NCBI RefSeq assembly: GCF_048593235.1
Contig: NC_133620.1
Location: 228,099,929 to 228,163,928 of the forward strand
Direction: 5' to 3'
Length of the DNA stretch: 64,000 nt
From: Sminthopsis crassicaudata
Taxonomy: Eukaryota
The position numbers and the translations under genes were made by a program. Below the pieces are notes generated by a model. That model saw nothing but the letters and a program-made list of their open reading frames with translations. It was not told where the DNA came from and ran no database searches. Below are positions 2,487 through 49,005 of this stretch, piece by piece (within the stretch, counting starts at the first letter, position 1; every line of letters starts with the position of its first letter).

Positions 2487-4537
2487 AAAGACTGAAGTTC
2501 TGACAATTAGAATTATTCTTAAATAGAAAGAGCTGATTCAGAAGATAGTGATTTCCCCTCTTCTGAATGTCCCTATTTCTACTCAAGACAGCAGCATCCT
2601 TCCAGTCTCCCAAATTTGAAACCTTAGCATTATCTTTGATTTCTCCTCCTCCCTTAATTCACAATATCCACATGTTAAATATTATTGTCCCTGCCTCCAT
2701 ATCATCTCTCTCAACCTACTTCTTTTACCTACTTTTATAGTCTCTACCCTAATTTATATCCTTATAATCTTTCACTTCATGTATTACTGTAGTCTGCTAA
2801 TTGATCTTTCTACATGGTTTCCCCCCCTCTTCAATTCATCCTTCATACAGTTACCAAAGTGATTAGGAACAAATCCAATCATGACATTTTCCTCCCTAAT
2901 TATTCAACTCCTGTGGCCCCTTTTCTTCCTAGCATAAAAAAAGAAACTACTCCGGCTTTCAAAGAGATTCACAACTTGGTCACCTTTTCCAAGCTTATTA
3001 TACATTTCCTTTTGGTTGCTGACACACCAGTACCCCTCCCAGCCCCCCGCCACACTTCCCAAAAGTAGGATGTTTTCAAACCTTGATGTTGCCTCTTACT
3101 GTGTGATTTTAAGAGCAAATCCCTTAACCTTTTTCTGGGCCTCAGTTTCTTCATTATTAAATTGGGCAGGGTATGGATTAGATGATTTTTAGTCATTTCC
3201 AGGTTTAACTTTAAGATCCTATAAAAATGTATGACTATGATAAACTAGAAGTCAGTAATAATTCACTGGACTACATCATATATTTATGGACATTTTTTAA
3301 AAATTGAATAAGATTATATAATCTTTATTCAAAGGATTATAAAAGTTACCTGGGATATTAGAAATTAGTAAGTATTGCCTCTGTAACAACTCATTTTGAA
3401 TAATACAAAAAAAAAAAAAAAATCCCTAGGTACTATAGCAAATTTAATCAGTTTTCTTTGGGGGATGGAGAAGGCAATAGATTTCTGGTTTCTTTTCATA
3501 CATTATAAATTGTCTTAGAAGGCAAGAAGATAAGATTAAATAAGTACTTCTCTGAAAGACAGGCATGATCTTATTTGAGAATGATAGAACATAGCAACAT
3601 CTCACATTTCCAGATGATACTTAGCTCTTCAAGGAAGAAAGCAGTAAAGCTTTTAGACATGGAATATTTATTTTGCAAGTACACTTTCTCTTCTTACCTC
3701 ATTGAATTTCAGAGTTAGCTGGGACTAGAGTAGAAAGGTTAAATGGTTCATTTCCTATCCAAATCATGAATTATGACTGCCCTAGGGAATATAGGACATA
3801 TGATCAACCTCATTAAAGGAATGACTTTCTGAAGTCATCAACCCAATGTATTGCATGTCTAAAAGAGCAATAAAACTCTAGATAGTATCAAAAAGGAGTG
3901 TTGGAGAGAAAATATAAACTATTATCCTATTCTATAACCCATCCATAATGACACTAAAGCCAATCCAGAGTAAGGACAGCTAACTTATTAGGCTGAAACT
4001 GGGTGATTTTATTGGTGTCAGGAGATGTCCCAAATGAGGAAACTCCTTTTATAAATACAGACTGGCATCTTGAGTTGATAATTAATTGTAAATTATGTTC
4101 CTTGATCTTTGGGACAGTTATGTGACTTCTAGGGTCCTCTTTTTGCATCTTATTTCCTGCTATTGTCTTTATACTAGATATTAATACATTTACTTACTAT
4201 ACTGACTACAAAGGCAAGGGGCAGTCAGGGGGTACCAGTAACATAATGTTTTAAATATATGACTCCGCTACAAATTATAGAGTGTTGCTCAGGGCCAGGA
4301 GTGGCTAAGTAATTTGCCTGGGATTATACAACCAGTTGGTGTCAGACATAGCACTTGAATCAGGTCTTCCAGTTTTTGAAGCCAGCTGTCTTCTCCACAA
4401 AGCCATTTCTCTATCCACTGTGCCATATTACCTCATAATACTATGTTATTATAAACATAATTATGGGTTAATATGGGAAAATCATTTTAGCTTTCAGCTT
4501 CTTTTCATCTATAAAATGGAAATATCCATACTAGCAG

Positions 4538-9470: not shown

Positions 9471-10416
9471 CTTTAAAAATATTACCAATTCCATCTTAGT
9501 GGAATGCTAATTTTTTTTCCATTTTATAGCTAGTAAACAATTTTTAACTTTTTTGTATTCCTAAATATTTGTTGCATTCATCTTTTTCTCTCTACTCACA
9601 TATTGACCACTTTCTTTCAGGCCTTCATCAATTATATCCTGGACTACTACAACAATTTATTAGTTGATCTCCTATCTTCACCCCTCTCCATTTTATTTTC
9701 TAAAAACTGTCCAAATGATACTCTTAAAGCAAGTCTGACTATGCCATTCCTTCTCTTTCTATTTCATCTTTAATCAAATCCAAATTTTTCTGTTGGGAAT
9801 TTAAAACCTCACACAACCAGTTTCTAGCCTGGTGTTGTTCATTCTTGAGGCCAACCTCAAATTGGCCTATTGGTTGATCATTACATACACATTCCATTTA
9901 TACTTCCTCCTTATCCCCATTTTACAGGATCCCTACAAAGTTCAGCTCGGGAATCATGTATTATATGAAGCCTTTCCTAATCTCCCCAGTTATACAACCA
10001 GCTACACTAGTCTCCTTCCTGAAATGAACTATATATTTACTTAAATGTGTACCTGTATTCTTTCTCAAGAATGGAAGCACCTTGAAGACAGAGACTTTCA
10101 TTTTTCTCTTTGTATTCCCAGAGCATTGCACAGTGTCTTGAAAACAAGTACATAGTGAATATTCATTTGATTAGTGGTTAAAGAATAGAAACTTAATTAA
10201 TACATACAGAAGTTAAGTTGCAATAAGAGAATTGGGAAACTCTAAAAAATCAGTTTATTTGGTTCTTCTGACTTTTTATCCATTGTTAATTTAAATATTT
10301 TTTTTGTATCTGTATTCCTCTAGCTCCTGTTTACCACAATATTTGTACATAATATATATTTGTACGTAATATTGCTTTAAACATTTTTTTTTTAAACTTT
10401 TCAACTGTTTTTCTAG

Positions 10417-10551
10417 GTTTTGGAGGTTCTTTCATTGCACCTTCTCCATCACCAGTAACACCAGCTCAGAATAACTTATTGCAACCTAATTTTGAAGCAG
10501 CTTTTGGAACATCACCATCAACTACTAGCAGCAGCTCCTTTGATCCATCAG
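10417..10551 (+). CDS. SNAP91: SNAP91 coding exon, GFGGSFIAPSPSPVTPAQNNLLQPNFEAAFGTSPSTTSSSSFDPS
   Basis: ttctag| acceptor and G|gtgagg donor; 135 nt, in frame with the previous exon; AP180 sequence recognised. Confidence 0.97.
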
Positions 10552-12146
10552 GTGAGGAAATAAATTGCACTTTTCATATAACTTATTTTGAATTCATTTA
10601 AAAATTACTTATTTATATTTTAAACTATCAAGAAATTAACAAATATTGGGTATTGAGACCCTTACATTTCAAACTGATCTTTTATTCTGTATTTTTAAAA
10701 TACTAATTTTAATTGTTACTTACAATTAGTACATTTGTGGGTAGCATTAGGAATAATCTACAAACCCTCTCTGAATCTATTTTTTAATTTTTAGCAGAAA
10801 TCTAACTTAACATGCACATCATCTCTTTGCATGTGCTTATCTTTGCATGAGTTTTAGAACTGAAAGGAAAACAAATACTTTGTACCATATAGTCAGTAAT
10901 CTGAATATACTCTCACTGCTGTTGGCAGGGAGAGCATGCCAGCTTGCATGGCACTCAGTTTTTCAAAGTTGAGATACAAATACAGAGTGTTCTTTGCCTG
11001 CCTTTAACTTTTCATCCCTGCTGTCATTTTGTTTGTATTCTCTTCCATTCTACTCTTCCTATGCTGGGTCCTTACTACAAATTTACAATTGGTGAGTTTT
11101 TGGCAATTAAGTGAGTTTAAAAAGCACCCTAATTCTATTCCTTGCCTGATGATTCAGTTGCTTCTGTAATTAGTGCATAATTGAATGCTATATTTTCCCC
11201 AATTTAAATTATAGTATTGCAATATTTATGATAGATGTCTAGCAAATATTACTTGTATTGGATTTTAGCAATACAATTTTCTATAACTAAGTATATGGTA
11301 TCAACAAATCCTACTGTGAGAATGTATTTGGAATGGTCCGTTTTGGACAATTGAAACTTCTCAAATGGTATTTTGCAAGACAAGCTTTTAAGAATCATTA
11401 GATAAATCTGTATAGGGCCAAATTTTTGTTTTAAAATTCCTATGGTAATTATGGTGTTTTAGGTGTGATCTTAAAGATGTAAGAAAATGTTGTTACCTAA
11501 AATAAAAAAATAAGAATCACAGTTTTTCATATATACTTAAAATATAGAATAAGTGTAAATTTATTCACTATGAATATTACTTGTTAAGTGTTACTATTTG
11601 ACATTCATTTCATCTAGTATGTGAGAATAAACCATTTATTCAAATTCAAATACTCAAAATTCATAGGATTTGTTGCTGTTTTAGAACAAAGAGTTTTGAC
11701 TTGCATTTATATTCCTAGGTTACATGATTCCTAGATTCAGTGATTGTTTAGATGTTCATTAAACTTATTTCAGCTTTGAGAGATCTTTGTTTCTGCACTT
11801 TAAAAATTAGGAGTTAACTCTCTCTTCATTTATCTTCTTGCCAACAGTAAAATACTTGTACTTTTTTTTTTTTTTTGTAAAAGTATATTATTTACTTGCA
11901 CTCACAATTTTAGTTAAAGTAATTTCAATTACAAGCAACTCTGATAAATCTATAAATGATGGGAGAAATATCCATCACTACTAGTAAAGTGAATTTCCTA
12001 ACTGGGAGTTCTGTTAACCTATGAAATAAAAAATCCAACTTCCCCATTTACCCCCACCCCATCAAGAAAGAAATAAAAGAAGCAACTCAATTCTGTTGTT
12101 ATTTTAAAAATATATATATTCTGAACCTGGTCTTTTTGAATTCTAG

Positions 12147-39334: not shown

Positions 39335-39660
39335 TGCTGGAACTCTGTCTTTCCACGAAATCAGCCAGAGTCAGGATTATCAAAAGTCTTTATTCTTGGT
39401 CTTTTGGGGTCGCTGTGAGGGGATTAGATCTAGCAAATACCTCACCTTCCTCTCTCCCCACTGCCAGGAGAATGCCTCAATTTCCTCCTCCTACTCCACC
39501 CACACACATCACTTCCCCTTCTTTGTCTCACCAATCGAGCCAGCACAGAATAGTTGGGGAGGGTCATCCTTCAAACATGTTATTAGAGAATTGTCCAATT
39601 GGCAATTAGTCTCACGTGCTCCATTATCCAAGTGCATTTGCTCAGTTCTAGCCCTTTACA
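39335..39660 (-). mobile_element. Solo LTR related to the provirus LTR, nested in a MIR
   Basis: The reverse complement begins TGTAAAGGGCTAGAACTGAG and ends GAGTTCCAGCA; perfect 6-bp TSD AGGTAC (39329-39334 and 39661-39666). Confidence 0.95.
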
Positions 39661-42015: not shown

Positions 42016-43245
42016 TACATGATCCTTCAACCAACTGAGCTTAACAGGTGAGGCAGTGGACTACTTACTTTATAAAGGACATGATTATGGAATCTCTTTC
42101 TCTGAACATATTTTTTAAATGCAATGCAGGCTTTTCACCACAGTGGATTTTTGTTTCCTGTAATAAATCCAAAGGTGACCATAAGTATATATTGTGAACC
42201 TCCTGAGGGGATTTGAGGTAAAAAGAGTAGGTGACTCAAACATGGTTTTGCCACAAATTATACTGTATCTCTTGAGGTCTTTCCAGCCCTTATGATAGCC
42301 AATATTTTAAACAAAAAAAAGCACAGAAAAACATAATGTTGTGGGGAATGAAGCTAAGAATCAGGCACAGGGAGATGAGGAGAGAAATAACTTTTATTTC
42401 TACGTCTGTTGCTGTGATTATCTATAAAAGTTTAAACCAGACAGTTTTAGTGAAATTCAGGTTTTCAGGTATTGTTAAAGAATACAAAGGCTAATGGATA
42501 GTTACTGGGGGAGGTTTCACCATAGTGACAGTTGGACGTATTACTTTTAATGTAGGATTACTCACTAAATCCAAAAAATAATTGAGAAGAGTAATGGAAT
42601 GTGTTCCAATGTTCCTTTCTGCATCTGTAATGATTTTACATGCTTCATTAGCTTCTATATCTGTAGATGGCAGAATACTCTCCATTAGCCCTTTAACCTT
42701 GAACTCTAATTTCATTATTATTAATTCTCTTAACTTGAGCTAAATTAACATATTGAATAATGTATTGCAATGGAAAGTGCCCTAGATCTGAGTCCAAATT
42801 CTGGCTTTGTGGTTTCCTACCTCTTTGACCTCTGGTAATCAATCAACAAGCACTTATTTATAATGTGCCTATTATATTCCAGGCACTGGGCAAGTCACTT
42901 ATAGACAACTAGAAAAATGCTGACTTTATTGATACATCTCCTGTCTTTGGATCACACAGGCTTAATTGTAGGGTCTCTTTCACAAAAACATATAAAAATC
43001 AAACAGTATATTTCAGCTCCTTGATCAATATATCAAGGATCTATGATTTTATCAGTGTGAGAACTCTCTCCCCCAGGGTAAATCATAACCTAGTTATAAA
43101 AATTAGGCAACTTTTATAAGACCTATAAGATTAGGATGACTTGTCCATATGTCACATAGCTAGAAAGCATCAGAAGTGGGATTTGAACTCAGTCTTCTTT
43201 AATTGAAGTGCAGCATTTCATTTACTGTAAAGGGCTAGAACTGAG

Positions 43246-43629
43246 ATGATGACAGTCACCCACATTCTGACTCCAAGCAGCAAAACCCAGGAATATACTT
43301 GACAGCAGCTGTGACAGCTGACTGACCTATGCTCACCATCTATATAAATGGCATATCATTAGAAGGACTGGTGGACACAGGTGCAGATCACACAATCATT
43401 AGAGGTGCCAACTGGCCCAGTCACTGGCCAAAGACTAAGGCAGACACCTAAATGTCTGGGGTAGGAGAAGCAATAGCAGCTGAAGTAAGTGCTATACCTT
43501 TAAGATGGATATTTGAAGGTGAAACAGGAGTTTTTACTCCTTTTATACTTGAAAAAAATCCCCATCAATCTATGGGGAAGAGATATTTTACAACAATTAG
43601 GGTTAAAAATGAGTACTTCGGTTTTTTAG
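43246..43629 (+). pseudogene. ERV protease (pro) remnant
   Basis: ...PMLTIYINGISLEGLVDTGADHTII...WPSHWP...; DTGAD at 43374-43388; ends [15 protein letters not shown]...F-TAG. Contains internal TGA and TAA stops and a +1 A in the run at 43552-43558. Confidence 0.9.
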
Positions 43630-46269
43630 GCAGGGCTGCTGTTGAAGGCCTGCCACCACTTTCACCTGTTCCTATCCAATGGAAAACCAATACACCAGTG
43701 TGGATAGAACAGTGGCCCTTAGGTAGCGATAAAATTCAGGCCTTACTAGATATAGTACAGGAACAACTTGACCAAGGACACTTACAACCTTCTCTAAGGA
43801 ATTCCCCAGTATTTGTTGTAAAAAAGAAATCTGGAAAATGGAGGATATTGACTGATTTAAGAAAGGTAAATGAACAGATGGAAACAATGGGAACTCTTCA
43901 ACCTGGACTTCCATCTCCTACTCAGTTGCCAAGAGAATGGCCTCTATGGGTTATAGACATTAAGGATTGTTTCTATTCTATCCTTCTAGATAAGGAGGAT
44001 ATGAAAAGATTTGCCTTTTCAGTGCCCAGTGTTAACTTAGCTGAGCCTTATAAAAGATATGAATGGACAGTTTTGCCACAGGGAATGAAAAACAGCCCTA
44101 CTATGTGTCAAATGTATGTTGCTGCTGCTCTTACTCCAGTAAGAAAAGCATTTCCAAAAGTAATGTTATTACATTACATGGATAATATCTTGGGGTGTGC
44201 ATTTGAGGAACAAATGTTAGAAGCATGTCTACAAAAAAACCATAGAAACACTAAGGAATTATAGATTTACATAGCTTCAGAAAAGATTCAAAAACATGCT
44301 CCTTTTCAATATTTAGGACATGAAGTATATCCTAAGGTGCTTACAGTAAAAAACTCTCCTTAAGAACAGAGAAGCTAAACACTTTAAATGACTTCCAGAA
44401 ATTGATAGGAGATATCCAATGGATGTGTCCCATGCTAGGCTTGACTACCTGTCAATTGCAAACATTATATGACATTTTAAGGGGAGACAGTGCTTTAAAT
44501 TCACCACACCAGCTTACAAAAGAAGCTCAAGAGACTCTGAGACAAGTTGAACTGGCTTTATCCAGTTGGTTGAAAGAGTTACTCAAAAACCCTTGGAAAT
44601 ATCAGTTTTTGCTACACAAGAGGCACCCACAGCAGTCCTTCATCAAGGAGACAGTGTGATGGAGTGGGTGAACCTCCCAGCACAACCAGAACAAAGCCTT
44701 ATTCCTTACCCAGTGCTTGTGGCTAGAATTTTATTAAAGGCCATTAAGCATACAGTACAATTATTTGGGATAAGACCTGACAAGATATACACCCTTTATA
44801 CTAATGCACAAATTAATGTGTGCTGTGAAGCCATCCCAGAGTGGCAAATTTTATTAGCCATGGCTCCAAATTTTACACATGGGTCTCCATTAAAGATAAC
44901 CAGACTGTTACATAATTGGCGATGGATTCTTGAAGAAAAGGTTTCTAAAGTTCCTCTTAAAGGACCAACTATTTTTACAGATACATCCAAACATAATATT
45001 TGCGCTGTATATTCTCGTGACTTAACTATAAAGAGAGTAATCAGAACTCCTTTTCAGTCCACTCAGCAGAATGAATGGTATGCAATCATTCTGGCTCTTG
45101 CTTATTATCTGGGAGAAATAAATATAATATCTGATTTGGCCTATTTGGTAGGTGTGGTACAAAGAATTGCCACAGCCCAAATAAAATTTGTAGCCTCCAA
45201 TATATATCAGCTCTTTAAGGAACTTCAAGAGCAAATGAGAAAGCATCCAAGTAAGATTTATATTTTGCATGTCCACTCTCACAGGGGACTTCCAGGTCCT
45301 ATTTTTGATGGTAATTCAAAGGCAGATAGCCTTCTAACCATGTTGGCCAATATTCCTTTATTTCAAGAAGCACAAGAATCTCATTCAAAATATCATCAGG
45401 CTGCCCAAGCTTTACGTTTGCAGTTTGGAATAACAAGAGAAGAAGCTAGGAGCATAGTAAAAGCCTGTACAGCTTGCCTTCCTTTCCATGGTCCTACACT
45501 CCCTCCAGGGAAGAACCCTCATGGTTTGAGACCTAATGAAATTTGGCAAATGGATGTGACCCATTATAAATCTTTTGGTCGTCTGTCTTTTATCCACATC
45601 ATGGTAGACACCTTTTCAGGATTCACATTTGCAATGCCAGCAGCAAAAGAGACAGCCTGAGTGGTCATTGAATTCCTTATACAAGCATTTGCAATTATGG
45701 GTGTGCCACAAGCAATAAAAACAGACAATGCATCTGCATATACATCTAAACATTTTACATACTTTTGTGCACAGTATAAGATTTTACAAACCACGGGCAT
45801 ACCCTTTAATCCTCAAGGGCAGGCAATAGTAGAGAGAAGAAATAGAGATATTAAGACACTCCTCCAAAAACAAAAGAAAGGGGGAGCCACGGGTAACCCT
45901 AGAGAACTTCTAAATTTAGTTCTCTATACCATTAATTTTTAAATTTTTGACAAAGATGCACTGGCTCTGGCAGACAGGTTTTATAACCCACCAGAAGGGC
46001 AGTGTCCAGTGTGAGCAGCTCCACTGTCTTTAGATAATCGCCAGGTGATGTGGAGAGACCCAGAAAGTGGTGAATGGAGGGGACCAGATAGGTTAACTGC
46101 TTGGGGGAGAGGGTTTGCTTGTATCTCCACAGATGGAGAAGGAATCAGATGGGCGCCAACGAGCCGTATTCGCCTTGTCTATTGGAGACAGACACAGCAG
46201 ACCCTTGAAATGAAGGAGAAGACCCAAGAAACATTGGGTGGTTCCATTGCTGACTGTGCCCACCACTGA
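43621..46269 (+). pseudogene. ERV pol (RT-RNaseH-integrase), disrupted by stops and frameshifts
   Basis: RT: [32 protein letters not shown] (YMDD mutated). RNase H: IFTD..QQNE..IISD..HVHSH. IN: H..H..C..C, WQMDVTH, KTDN, GQAIVER. These motifs are typical of betaretroviruses. Confidence 0.95.
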
Positions 46270-46317
46270 AAGAACCTGGAGGTTATGGCGTTTGACCCAT
46301 GGAGATCAAAAACTGTT

Positions 46318-46475
46318 GGACTTGAAAATCCTCAGGAATCATTGGATTCTCTGAGACATCATAAGACTATTGTAGGACTTGAAAGCCCTCAGGAATTACT
46401 GGCTTCTCTGAGGCATCATAAGACTGTTGCAGGACTTCAAAAACTTGTGGGGATCATTGGATTCCCTAACATGTT
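46318..46475 (+). repeat. 57-bp tandem repeat (~2.7 copies) inside the provirus
   Basis: GGACTT unit starts at 46318, 46375 and 46432. Confidence 0.9.
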
Positions 46476-46480
46476 AAGCA

Positions 46481-46640
46481 ATGGACAATAGATTGGTTTT
46501 GGACTATTTCTTGGTTGCTGAAGAAGGGGTATGTGTGTCTGGTGTTTACATACCCTCCTTCTAGGACTTCTGGAAATCTTTTACAAAACTGTGTTGATTT
46601 ATATTGTTTGTTAAATCACCACTTGTATGTACAATTCATG
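46481..46640 (+). pseudogene. env transmembrane-subunit remnant with gamma-type immunosuppressive domain
   Basis: 46481-46534 translates MDNRLVLDYFLVAEEGVC, compared with the consensus LQNRxxLDxLxxxxGGxC. A hydrophobic stretch follows in another frame. Confidence 0.7.
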
Positions 46641-46918
46641 TTTGTTACACCACATCGAGCCTGCACTGACTGTAAGGAGAGTCATCCCTAATAGCCTCTG
46701 TGTTATTGCTATGTGCTTGTGTAATAACTCTCATGCTGATGGGTTTGTGCATTCTTGTCTCTAATAAGACCCTTCAACCCAGAAACCCGCTAGCAATCCC
46801 CACTTCTCTTTGGTGCTTTTCATCTCCCTTCCTGAGATGTCAGGGGGGGCATGATCACCTCCTTTTTGGGGTTCTCACCTCCCTGAAAAGTCAGGGATGG
46901 CGTGACTACCTGTGGTCT

Positions 46919-46939
46919 AAAACAAAAGAAAGCAGGAGA
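46919..46939 (+). promoter_or_regulatory. Polypurine tract of the provirus
   Basis: AAAACAAAAGAAAGCAGGAGA directly abuts the TG of the 3' LTR. Confidence 0.85.
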
Positions 46940-47286
46940 TGTAAAGGGCTAGAACTGAGCAAATGCATTTGGATAATGGAGCACGTGAGACTAATTGCCA
47001 ATTGGAAGGTTCCCTATTAACTTGTTTGAAGGTTGACCCTCCCCAGCTGTTCTGTGCTGACTTGATTGGTGGGACAAAGAGGGGGAAGTGACGTGTGTGG
47101 GAGGAGTAGGAGGAGGAAGAAGAGGAAATTGAGACGCTCACACTCAGTCTCTCCTGGCATTTGAGGGAGGAAGGTGTGTGTGAGGTTGCTAGGTTTAAGC
47201 CCCTGACCTTGACGGTAAAAGATCAAGAATAAAGACGTTTAGTGATCCTGACTCTGGCTGATTTTTGGGAAGACAGAGTTCCAGCA
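46940..47286 (+). mobile_element. 3' LTR of the provirus (347 bp)
   Basis: TGTAAAGGGC...GAGTTCCAGCA; AATAAA at 47228-47233; several CpGs retained, including a CACGTG E-box. Confidence 0.95.
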
Positions 47287-49005
47287 ATTTACTATTTCAC
47301 ACTGCATCTAATTAATTCCAGTATTTTACATTAAGAAACATGAAAAGTCTTTGTGGTGCATAATATTTTTTCAAAATTATCTGGTACTTACATGAATGAA
47401 ACCCAATGGTAATGAACAGAGTAACACTATTATCCATTCTGGCTTAACAGAAAAACCAAAAAGCTTTCCATGAAGATTGAACAATCAATATGCAGTGAAC
47501 AGACTTACTGATTTATGTAAATACAAAACTTACAATATATAATTTCTATTTTTCTTATCTTACTTTTTTAATGACTGGATATTTTCCTGGTGAAAATAAA
47601 CATTTCAAAAACATTATTGAGCTTTGTACATAAGCACATGAAAGTGTCAAGAACCCTGATCCTGGCATTATATAATTATTATATAAAAATTACCAATTCT
47701 TTTTTAATTAAGAAAGTAAAACCTTAAGAAATACATTAGAAAAGTGAGTGGGAGGAATATAGAATAACTGTAACCCACCTCTACAAGGAGGAGAGAGAGA
47801 AAGGAAGAGAGTTCACAGAATTGTGAGATTTAGAGCCAGAATCAATCAATTAGCATTTATTTAGTGCTTACTACGCATGTACCTAAGCACTGCAAGAGAT
47901 TACCTAATCCAATTCTCTCATTTTACAAGTGAAGAAAATGAGACCCTAGTGAGATGAAGTAATTTGTCTAAGATCATTAGTAAATAAGCGTTTATTAAGC
48001 ACCTACTGTGTACTAACACTGGTGATTTTTTTTAAAAAGGCAAAAAAAAAAAAATTGAACTCATAGTCTAATGGGCAGTAAAAGGCAGAGGAAGGATTTC
48101 CACCTAAGTCTTCTAATTCCAAACCTAGGACCCTCTTTACTAAACTAGGGGATTCCTCTGTATGGTTTGACAAAACAGAAACAGAATAGAAAATACTGGA
48201 AAAAACTTTCACTAAAGTGGATAAAACGTTGGTCTTATCACAGAATGGAGGTGACCCTGTTTTCACAAAGACTATAGAGAGGCTACTAACTTCTATCAAG
48301 CTCAAAAAACTTTAAGTATGCACCTGTTAACGGACTACCCACCACTCTGTTACGTGAGGACCAGTTTACTTAAGTTCAGGGTTCATGACTGTGATTAGCC
48401 ACAGCAAAGTTATCAGCTAAAGCATCTATCATCTGATATCTGTGTGATCTTGGACTTGCCTGGTTCACAAGATTCTGATTTTCTCTCTTATTCTTCAGAT
48501 TCCTTATCAAATTAAGAAGTTTCTATAATGTCCCCTTTGGCTCCTATAGAATGGAAGATCCTTATGGGAAAAGACTGTTTTGCTTCTGTCTTTACATCTA
48601 CTAGCACAGCTTTTGGGACATTATCAAGCACTTGATGAATACTTGCTAACTGATTGATTGCTTGTTAAATCTATGAGCCTATGATCTATGAGCATGTGGG
48701 GAATCCCAGTTCACATTATTGGAGAGAATATCTTGCTTGGTGAAATCACAGGTCTTTTAATCATGAAAAACCTCCAAATCAAAATGCGAAATTGTCTTTT
48801 TCAAAAAAGAACACAACTCAGGGCTTTAGTGACATTAAAATGGATGACAGATTCAAGCTAAATAAAAAAGCCATTCAAAATGTTTACTTGTGCTTTTTCC
48901 CCCAATTGAAAGTGTGAATTTTAGTGACCATATATAAATCAGACTGTAGAGTAACAATCAATTACAAATTGATAATAACTAATTCCAATGTTATATATCT
49001 ATATA

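What the first reader, a model, noticed from the sequence alone, without database searches (positions are those of the whole stretch)
46481..46640. Betaretroviral pol paired with a gamma-type env relic: a recombinant, env-collapsed ERV lineage
Pol and the 6-bp TSD are class II, but 46481-46534 encodes MDNRLVLDYFLVAEEGVC, matching the immunosuppressive domain of gamma-type envelopes. Canonical beta-type envelopes (MMTV, JSRV, HERV-K) lack this motif, while D-type viruses such as MPMV acquired gamma-type env by recombination. Only ~670 bp separate the pol stop from the LTR, so nearly all of env is gone. Env loss is the known route to intracellular retrotransposition (IAP, MusD). This may represent a little-described marsupial beta/gamma recombinant family that became a retrotransposon.
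Basis: partly seen in the sequence, partly recalled or inferred. Interest (0 to 1): 0.7.

Follow-up and report, generated by a model that had tools for sequence, protein, structure and literature searches.

The report
Dead copy of known marsupial retrotransposon
This is a broken copy of an already published marsupial retrovirus family (MEBrv 3) whose envelope gene has shrunk to a small gamma-type scrap shared by thousands of copies; older copies in the same genome keep more of that gene and suggest it was likely lost in steps and likely came from a local class I retrovirus lineage.

Summary
46481-46534 encodes MDNRLVLDYFLVAEEGVC, 670 nt separate the pol stop from the 3' LTR, the TSD is 6 bp, and pol is class II. 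The peptide is a true gamma-type TM relic. Its DNA occurs at 4,239 places in this genome, and the same internal env deletion at 645 or more.

The family is not new. It matches MEBrv 3 of Harding et al. 2024 (PMC11334065), already described as a beta-pol, env-less, IAP-like dasyurid family with a class I ISD relic. This copy is dead: the 5' LTR is a 20-bp stub, gag is gone and pol is broken.

Additions not in that paper's text:
(1) The relic is wider: HR1 end, ISD and membrane-span remnant, about 46421-46637. The 57-bp repeats are duplicated HR1 DNA.
(2) Older relatives keep a ~120-codon TM-only stub, and one degraded copy keeps an SU-like region, which points to stepwise loss.
(3) The nearest env is MEGrv 2-type class I, against the paper's '<32%' statement. 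A short TM tree did not confirm this.

The scan's earlier notes held nothing on this.

The parts
43220..43225 (+). left 6-bp target-site duplication ATTTAC
   Evidence: sequence
43226..43245 (+). 20-bp stub of the 5' LTR, joined directly to pro; the rest of the LTR, leader and gag are deleted
   Evidence: identical to 46940-46959; the junction pattern has 1 hit in the genome at <=2 mismatches, this one
43246..43617 (+). C-terminal part of pro (LVDTGAD motif), interrupted by a stop and a frameshift
   Evidence: by eye matches the Pro of the MEBrv 3 record
43620..46269 (+). class II pol (RT about 43818-44240, RNase H about 44968-45333, integrase about 45370-46266), broken by several stops and frameshifts
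46314..46427 (+). two 57-bp tandem repeats; duplicated DNA of the TM heptad (HR1) just before the ISD
   Evidence: 46318-46359 matches the HR1 DNA of older copies at 79-92%; 4-22 repeat motifs in 20 young loci
46421..46537 (+). env relic 1: end of HR1 plus ISD (core 46481-46534); a stop lies two codons before the ATG
   Evidence: 74-83% nt to the TM stub of older copies
46538..46549 (+). junction of a family-wide deletion of about 102-105 nt that removed the CX6CC loop and HR2
   Evidence: offsets against L112, L114, L127; alignment; 645 exact junction hits
46550..46637 (+). env relic 2: membrane-proximal and membrane-spanning remnant, with stops
   Evidence: 70-78% nt to the same part of older copies
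46760..46915 (+). segment resembling U3 of the older subfamily's LTR, now internal and duplicated; contains hairpins
   Evidence: short matches to positions downstream of the PPT in older copies; 46640-46925 folds at z -3.5; no Rfam hit
46918..46939 (+). polypurine tract
   Evidence: sequence; matches the PPT of older copies
46940..47286 (+). 3' LTR, 347 bp, TG...CA
47287..47292 (+). right target-site duplication ATTTAC

Best explanation
The window holds a dead, 5'-deleted copy of the published MEBrv 3 family, a class II (beta-like) provirus with a gamma-type env scrap that thousands of copies share, and the family likely spread by copying itself inside germ cells after losing its envelope. 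Likely history: (1) a beta-like gag-pro-pol ancestor captured a class I env related to the MEGrv 2-type env still in this genome (inferred from similarity; tree unresolved). (2) SU and the fusion peptide were deleted, leaving a ~120-codon TM-only stub right behind integrase (stub shown; the order SU-bearing to TM-only is inferred). (3) A ~105-nt deletion removed CX6CC and HR2, HR1 DNA expanded into a tandem repeat, and the LTR was replaced (anatomy shown; collapsed copies nest inside the older ones on the integrase tree). (4) This collapsed form amplified to thousands of copies. The scrap cannot form an Env and is most likely a passenger. This particular copy then lost its 5' part by a private deletion (likely after insertion) and decayed.
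For: By eye against the paper's MEBrv 3 record: 125 of 131 RT residues and 51 of 54 ISD bases identical, same repeat array and same post-ISD junction; that record's exact junction also occurs in this genome. ISD DNA has 4,239 matches at <=2 mismatches, control 0. 40 of 40 examined copies (chosen by likeness to the window) are collapsed; 15 of 20 young loci have LTR pairs 97.7-100% identical. An independent CX6CC pattern gave 81 hits (control 4) and led to older relatives. Of the top 30 loci for the L101 stub, 19 have window-like integrase within about 150 nt of a TM-only stub, 1 has a 460-nt spacer, 3 lack or duplicate that context, and 7 are class I MEGrv 2-type. The L101 stub hits TLV_coat at E 3.9e-13 and syncytin-2 at E 2.7e-14. 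Integrase tree: all copies form one clade against the other class II family (UFBoot 100); the collapsed copies form a clade (99) nested with old TM-only copies (97). Old LTR pairs are 72-76% identical in L101, L145, L150 and L151. L144 has the same pol lineage (77-79% nt) and about 1.0 kb between integrase and HR1; that stretch matches only MEGrv 2-type SU (E 5.5e-9 and 1.8e-6; best MLV-like or ERV3-like 0.07-0.09). Over 28 aa the window ISD is 14/28 identical to the MEGrv 2-type env and 9/28 to the MLV-like env.
Against: The TM tree (72 columns) did not group the relic lineage with the MEGrv 2-type envs; it placed MLV-like envs next to it with weak support, 90/50. The clade test could not be run. 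L144 is not basal on the integrase tree, its place is unresolved, it is the only SU-bearing copy found, and its SU has no Pfam or meaningful PDB hit. A third MEGrv 2-type query (L149) matched it only at E 0.029. L145, which also lacks CX6CC, does not join the collapsed clade, so that loss may have happened twice. The window LTR (347 bp) differs from the 469-bp LTR of the published representative. The paper states that the MEBrv 3 ISD is <32.1% like other marsupial ISDs and closest to SMRV and FeLV. Intracellular transposition is inferred, not assayed. The MEBrv 3 match is by eye.
Confidence: 0.85

Rival explanations
1. Same family, but the env donor was a D-type or MLV-like gamma env (the paper's nearest ISD matches were SMRV and FeLV), and the likeness to the MEGrv 2-type env is shared ancestral state.
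For: Paper statement. The TM tree puts MLV-like envs beside the relic lineage at 90/50. PDB hits include MLV p15E.
Against: Old stub versus MEGrv 2-type: 45-52% identity over 61-74 aa; versus MLV-like: 38-40% over 50-52 aa. The SU-like region of L144 matches only the MEGrv 2 type. By eye the paper's own two records share 17 of 28 residues over HR1 end plus ISD. The PDB copy holds few env types, so its ranking says little about the donor.
Confidence: 0.15
2. The env scrap is kept because it works, either as a short ATG-started ISD peptide (27 codons) or as an RNA element for export or packaging in the 3' region.
For: At least 150 loci encode the identical 27-aa peptide. The ISD survived two deletions. 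46640-46925 folds better than 200 of 200 shuffles. Family RNA covers the relic, mostly on the strand expected for sense transcripts, in three RNA-seq runs of a related organism.
Against: Identity among young copies is expected from recent amplification, and they were picked for it. HR1 and ISD are out of frame in 20 of 20 young loci and a stop follows the ISD in 19 of 20. Synonymous:non-synonymous counts in the ISD (40:74) lie between those of two integrase parts (79:93, 42:94), which is uninformative. There is no Rfam match. The fold is partly explained by duplicated LTR-derived hairpins.
Confidence: 0.12
3. The family spread by reinfection, borrowing Env from intact gamma-type proviruses in the same genome, rather than by purely intracellular copying.
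For: The genome holds many uninterrupted gamma-type env frames of 640-710 codons, some in young class II proviruses (L156, LTRs 99.6%).
Against: Copy number in the thousands fits the env-less superspreader pattern (PMC10536682 passages; PMC11334065). Nothing here shows co-packaging.
Confidence: 0.1
4. The peptide is a chance look-alike, or the deletion is private to this copy.
For: The window peptide alone has no Pfam or PDB hit.
Against: Older relatives continue the same DNA into CX6CC, HR2 and a membrane span; 645 exact junction hits.
Confidence: 0.01

Closest known systems
MEBrv 3, marsupial endogenous betaretrovirus 3 (Harding et al. 2024, PMC11334065)
   Same: Pol about 95% identical over 131 RT residues by eye, env-less, class I ISD after pol, same repeat array and junction, massive amplification.
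   Different: This copy lacks most of the 5' LTR and all of gag, has a broken pol, a different and shorter LTR (347 versus 469 bp) and only 2-3 repeat units. The paper's text describes neither the TM-only and SU-bearing older relatives nor an MEGrv 2-type donor.
MEGrv 2 (class I ERV, same paper)
   Same: Its env is the closest env found to the relic lineage, in TM and in the SU-like region of L144.
   Different: Class I pol (26-31% RT identity to the window) and long env frames; it is a candidate donor relative, not the same family.
Type D betaretroviruses (MPMV, SMRV; MEBrv 1 and 2)
   Same: Class II pol with a gamma-type env gained by recombination (PMC3758190 passages).
   Different: They keep full env. 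The in-genome class II family with MLV-like env is only 53-54% identical in RT and lies outside the clade. The paper places MEBrv 3 pol basal to mammalian betaretroviruses.
IAP env-less class II retrotransposons of rodents (MusD recalled as a parallel)
   Same: Env loss followed by high copy number. IAP lineages that gained gamma-type env are known in guinea pig and shrew.
   Different: Independent lineage; functional analogue only.

Membership tests
MEBrv 3 | Class II pol matching the representative record | tested here: met
   125 of 131 RT residues identical, counted by eye; no machine alignment to the record was run
MEBrv 3 | No env ORF; ISD beyond the pol end | tested here: met
   51 of 54 ISD bases identical by eye
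MEBrv 3 | Very high copy number | tested here: met
   4,239 ISD-DNA matches
MEBrv 3 | Young copies with near-identical LTRs and long open frames | tested here: met
   for the family, not this copy: 15 of 20 loci with LTR pairs 97.7-100%; 10 of 20 hold a 907-codon open frame, 6 of these also a 618-codon frame (inferred pol and gag)
MEBrv 3 | 469-bp LTR of the representative | tested here: not met
   window LTR is 347 bp and unlike it by eye; read as an LTR subfamily, since the paper defines the clade by pol and LTRs vary among copies here
MEBrv 3 | Dasyurid host | tested here: inconclusive
   inferred from the family match and copy number; the assembly was not identified
Gamma-type TM | ISD directly before the first cysteine | tested here: met
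   definition in PMC3758190
Gamma-type TM | CX6CC motif | tested here: not met
   deleted in the window copy; present in older relatives, so the relic descends from a gamma-type TM but is not a working one
Gamma-type Env | SU with CxxC motif and fusion peptide | tested here: not met
   absent in the window; a degraded SU-like stretch with CWVC exists only in L144
Type D betaretrovirus | Pol in the type D clade and D-type env | tested here: inconclusive
   no named type D reference was available; outside the in-genome MLV-env class II family; the paper places MEBrv 3 elsewhere
Intracellular LTR retrotransposon (IAP-like) | Replication without an extracellular step | not testable with these tools
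   inferred from env loss, copy number and young LTR pairs

The most novel reading that the evidence does not exclude
The genome preserves a full staircase of envelope loss in one beta/class I recombinant lineage (SU-bearing, TM-only stub, collapsed ISD scrap with an HR1-derived repeat). The SU-less TM stub with ISD, CX6CC and membrane span was a maintained product of an amplifying subfamily, and its ISD core is still retained by selection in today's copies. The staircase and the MEGrv 2-type donor alone are likelier (about 0.7) but of modest interest (about 0.4).
Probability: 0.1. Interest if true: 0.6.

Novelty: already known. Interest (0 to 1): 0.27.

Why it matters
The headline claim is published, so the finding mainly confirms MEBrv 3 in one more locus. 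The useful extras are for ERV specialists. Intermediates of env loss are seldom seen in one lineage, and here older TM-only copies and one SU-bearing copy allow the virus-to-retrotransposon transition of the dominant dasyurid ERV to be ordered and dated. A donor related to MEGrv 2 would correct the paper's statement that the MEBrv 3 env is unlike other marsupial envs and would place the recombination among local viruses.

Tried and rejected
No Pfam or PDB hit for the window peptide alone or read through its stops; it is too short, and relatives were needed.

The top 30 TLV_coat loci of the genome (30 of 82 matches fetched) are MLV-like envs with no DNA match to the relic, so they were rejected as intact relatives.

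Two searches of the large protein collection for longer homologues of the relic and of the L101 stub found nothing (weak evidence).

The post-ISD frames showed no significant match to MLV-like envs; the membrane-span remnant was recognised only by DNA match to older copies.

L105, L106 and L107 carry other class I TM types (L107 ERV3-like, label recalled) and were not shown to belong to this env lineage.

The selection test was uninformative. Rfam gave nothing. The TM clade test was not run. The protein atlas was unavailable. Magiorkinis 2012 was not held under its DOI and is cited only through other papers. PMC4408412 passages did not describe this family.

In RNA reads no spliced joint into the relic was among the listed joints, but the splice donor region is deleted in this copy, so the test is weak. 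This copy cannot be dated by LTR pair.

Full report
Observation. Window 46481-46534 translates to MDNRLVLDYFLVAEEGVC. The integrase C-terminal frame stops at 46267-46269 and the 3' LTR (46940-47286, 347 bp) begins 670 nt later. The element starts at 43226 and is flanked by ATTTAC on both sides. Pfam finds RT, RNase H and three integrase domains spread over broken frames. RT's best solved relative is 7sr6 (E 2.9e-72; recalled as HERV-K RT), far ahead of HIV-1 RT (about 1e-34), and named protein hits are ERV-K-like Pol. The 5' end is a 20-bp LTR stub joined to the end of pro. This junction occurs once in the genome, so the loss of gag is private to this copy, which cannot replicate.

Is the peptide env? 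Alone it hits nothing. Against three in-genome gamma-type envs it aligns on the ISD; 6-9 of 2000 shuffles score as well for the 18-mer, 1-7 for the 47-aa stretch, and 0 for a sister copy, L008. The L008 frame hits 6 PDB sequences at E<=10, all gamma-type TM. A pattern for an ISD followed by CX6CC gave 81 hits against 4 in the control; four of these resembled the relic's DNA. One, L101, continues into CX6CC, HR2 and a membrane span in a 122-codon frame that hits TLV_coat (E 3.9e-13) and syncytin-2 (E 2.7e-14). ISD plus CX6CC define the gamma-type TM (PMC3758190, passages). The relic is therefore real, and wider than reported: HR1 end and ISD at 46421-46537, a deletion of about 102-105 nt, then membrane-span DNA at 46550-46637. 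The two 57-bp repeats at 46314-46427 match HR1 DNA of older copies at 79-92%.

Is the collapse shared? The post-pol DNA had 4,928 candidates; all 40 scored matched over most of its length, a few in pieces. The ISD DNA has 4,239 matches at two mismatches or fewer, control 0, and the exact collapsed junction has 645. The 20 nearest loci and 20 loci picked from those with the identical peptide are all collapsed, though both sets were chosen by likeness to the window. Of the latter 20, 15 have LTR pairs 97.7-100% identical and span about 6.6-7.1 kb; 10 hold a 907-codon open frame. The window copy is 95-96% identical to them in RT and integrase. Family RNA, mostly on the strand expected for sense transcripts, is abundant in three 2026 RNA-seq runs of a related organism; the reads are mostly 88-95% alike, so they come from other copies.

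Known family. Harding et al. 2024 (PMC11334065; main text parts 1-5 of 7 read, supplement parts 1, 3 and 4 of 12 and two searches; figures not seen) describe MEBrv 3. It has class II gag-pro-pol, no env ORF, a class I-like ISD behind pol, IAP-like amplification, and makes up on average 67.5% of dasyurid ERVs. By eye its record matches the window at 125 of 131 RT residues and 51 of 54 ISD bases and has the same repeat array and junction, but a different LTR. Searches for 'MEBrv' with 'marsupial', for Dasyuridae terms and for dunnart terms found that paper and reviews or unrelated papers only. So the family is known, and these searches found no follow-up on its env history.

What the genome adds. 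Searching with the L101 stub gave 164 matches; the top 30 were fetched. Nineteen have window-like integrase (blastn to the window's pol end mostly 70-85%) within about 150 nt of a TM-only stub. One has a 460-nt spacer, three lack or duplicate that context, and seven are a class I family. LTR pairs of four old copies are 72-76% identical, so they are far older than the young burst; no rate was applied. On an integrase DNA tree of 37 rows the lineage is one clade (UFBoot 100) against the in-genome class II family with MLV-like env. The 19 collapsed copies form a clade (99) nested with two TM-only copies (97). A fusion-peptide-like fragment in L104 led to L144 (3 matches), a degraded provirus with pol 77-79% identical to the window and about 1.0 kb between integrase and HR1. 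That stretch matches the SU of the class I family (E 5.5e-9 and 1.8e-6; a third query only 0.029) and not MLV-like or ERV3-like envs (best 0.07-0.09). By eye the class I family is the paper's MEGrv 2. The window ISD region is 14 of 28 identical to it and 9 of 28 to the MLV-like env; L101 is 18 and 11. The paper's own two records share 17 of 28 by eye, against its statement of <32.1%.

Results against this reading. The TM tree (36 rows, 72 columns) did not join the relic lineage to MEGrv 2-type envs and put MLV-like envs beside it at 90/50; the clade test was not run. L144 is a single copy, is not basal on the tree, and its SU has no Pfam hit. L145 lacks CX6CC but falls outside the collapsed clade. 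The selection test on the ISD was uninformative. The 3' segment folds well (z -3.5) but has no Rfam match and contains duplicated LTR-like hairpins.

Mechanism. Shown: class II pol, gamma-type TM origin of the scrap, family-wide collapse, older TM-only copies, nesting of the collapsed form, death of this copy. Inferred: capture of a class I env related to MEGrv 2 (about 0.8), loss of SU before loss of CX6CC and HR2 (about 0.75), spread by intracellular retrotransposition as in env-less IAP (PMC10536682, passages; about 0.85), and that the scrap is a passenger (about 0.85).

Verdict. Observation confirmed; interpretation right in biology and wrong in novelty. Already known family, interest 0.27, carried by the stepwise-loss series and the candidate donor. 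The scan's earlier notes on this genome gave one unrelated finding.

Noticed in passing
window 39335-39660 (-): Solo LTR related to the 3' LTR (80% over 350 nt, 90% over the first 186 nt), with its own 6-bp TSD AGGTAC.
   Followed up: yes
window 46760-46915; L112, L115, L121, L130 about 1950-2060: The pre-PPT segment resembles U3 of the older subfamily's LTR, which suggests an LTR replacement that left old U3 internal and duplicated.
   Followed up: partly
L104:7600-8150: A second, internally deleted family fragment right behind an old provirus keeps a fusion-peptide-like stretch of TM; it led to L144.
   Followed up: partly
L107 (G000:C5 about 239.34 Mb): Pol pieces 77-83% identical to the window lie between two ERV3-like TM regions (label recalled). 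This may be a separate env capture or nested insertions.
   Followed up: no
window 45362-45882, RNA runs X21-X23: Many reads jump back from about 45882 to 45362-45374 inside integrase, with a threefold depth rise. This could be circular RNA or a tandemly duplicated copy in that organism.
   Followed up: no
G000:C5 244-249 Mb and C6 126-137 Mb: Many near-identical MEGrv 2-type env motifs cluster here in alternating orientation, as if amplified with a larger repeat.
   Followed up: no
PMC11334065 supplement, MEBrv 2 record about 9800-11106: By eye the tail of that record is a reverse-strand MEBrv 3-type segment with ISD relic and repeats.
   Followed up: no
L057: The HR1-derived repeat array reaches about 22 motifs (2.2 kb between integrase and ISD), so it behaves as a VNTR.
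   Followed up: no
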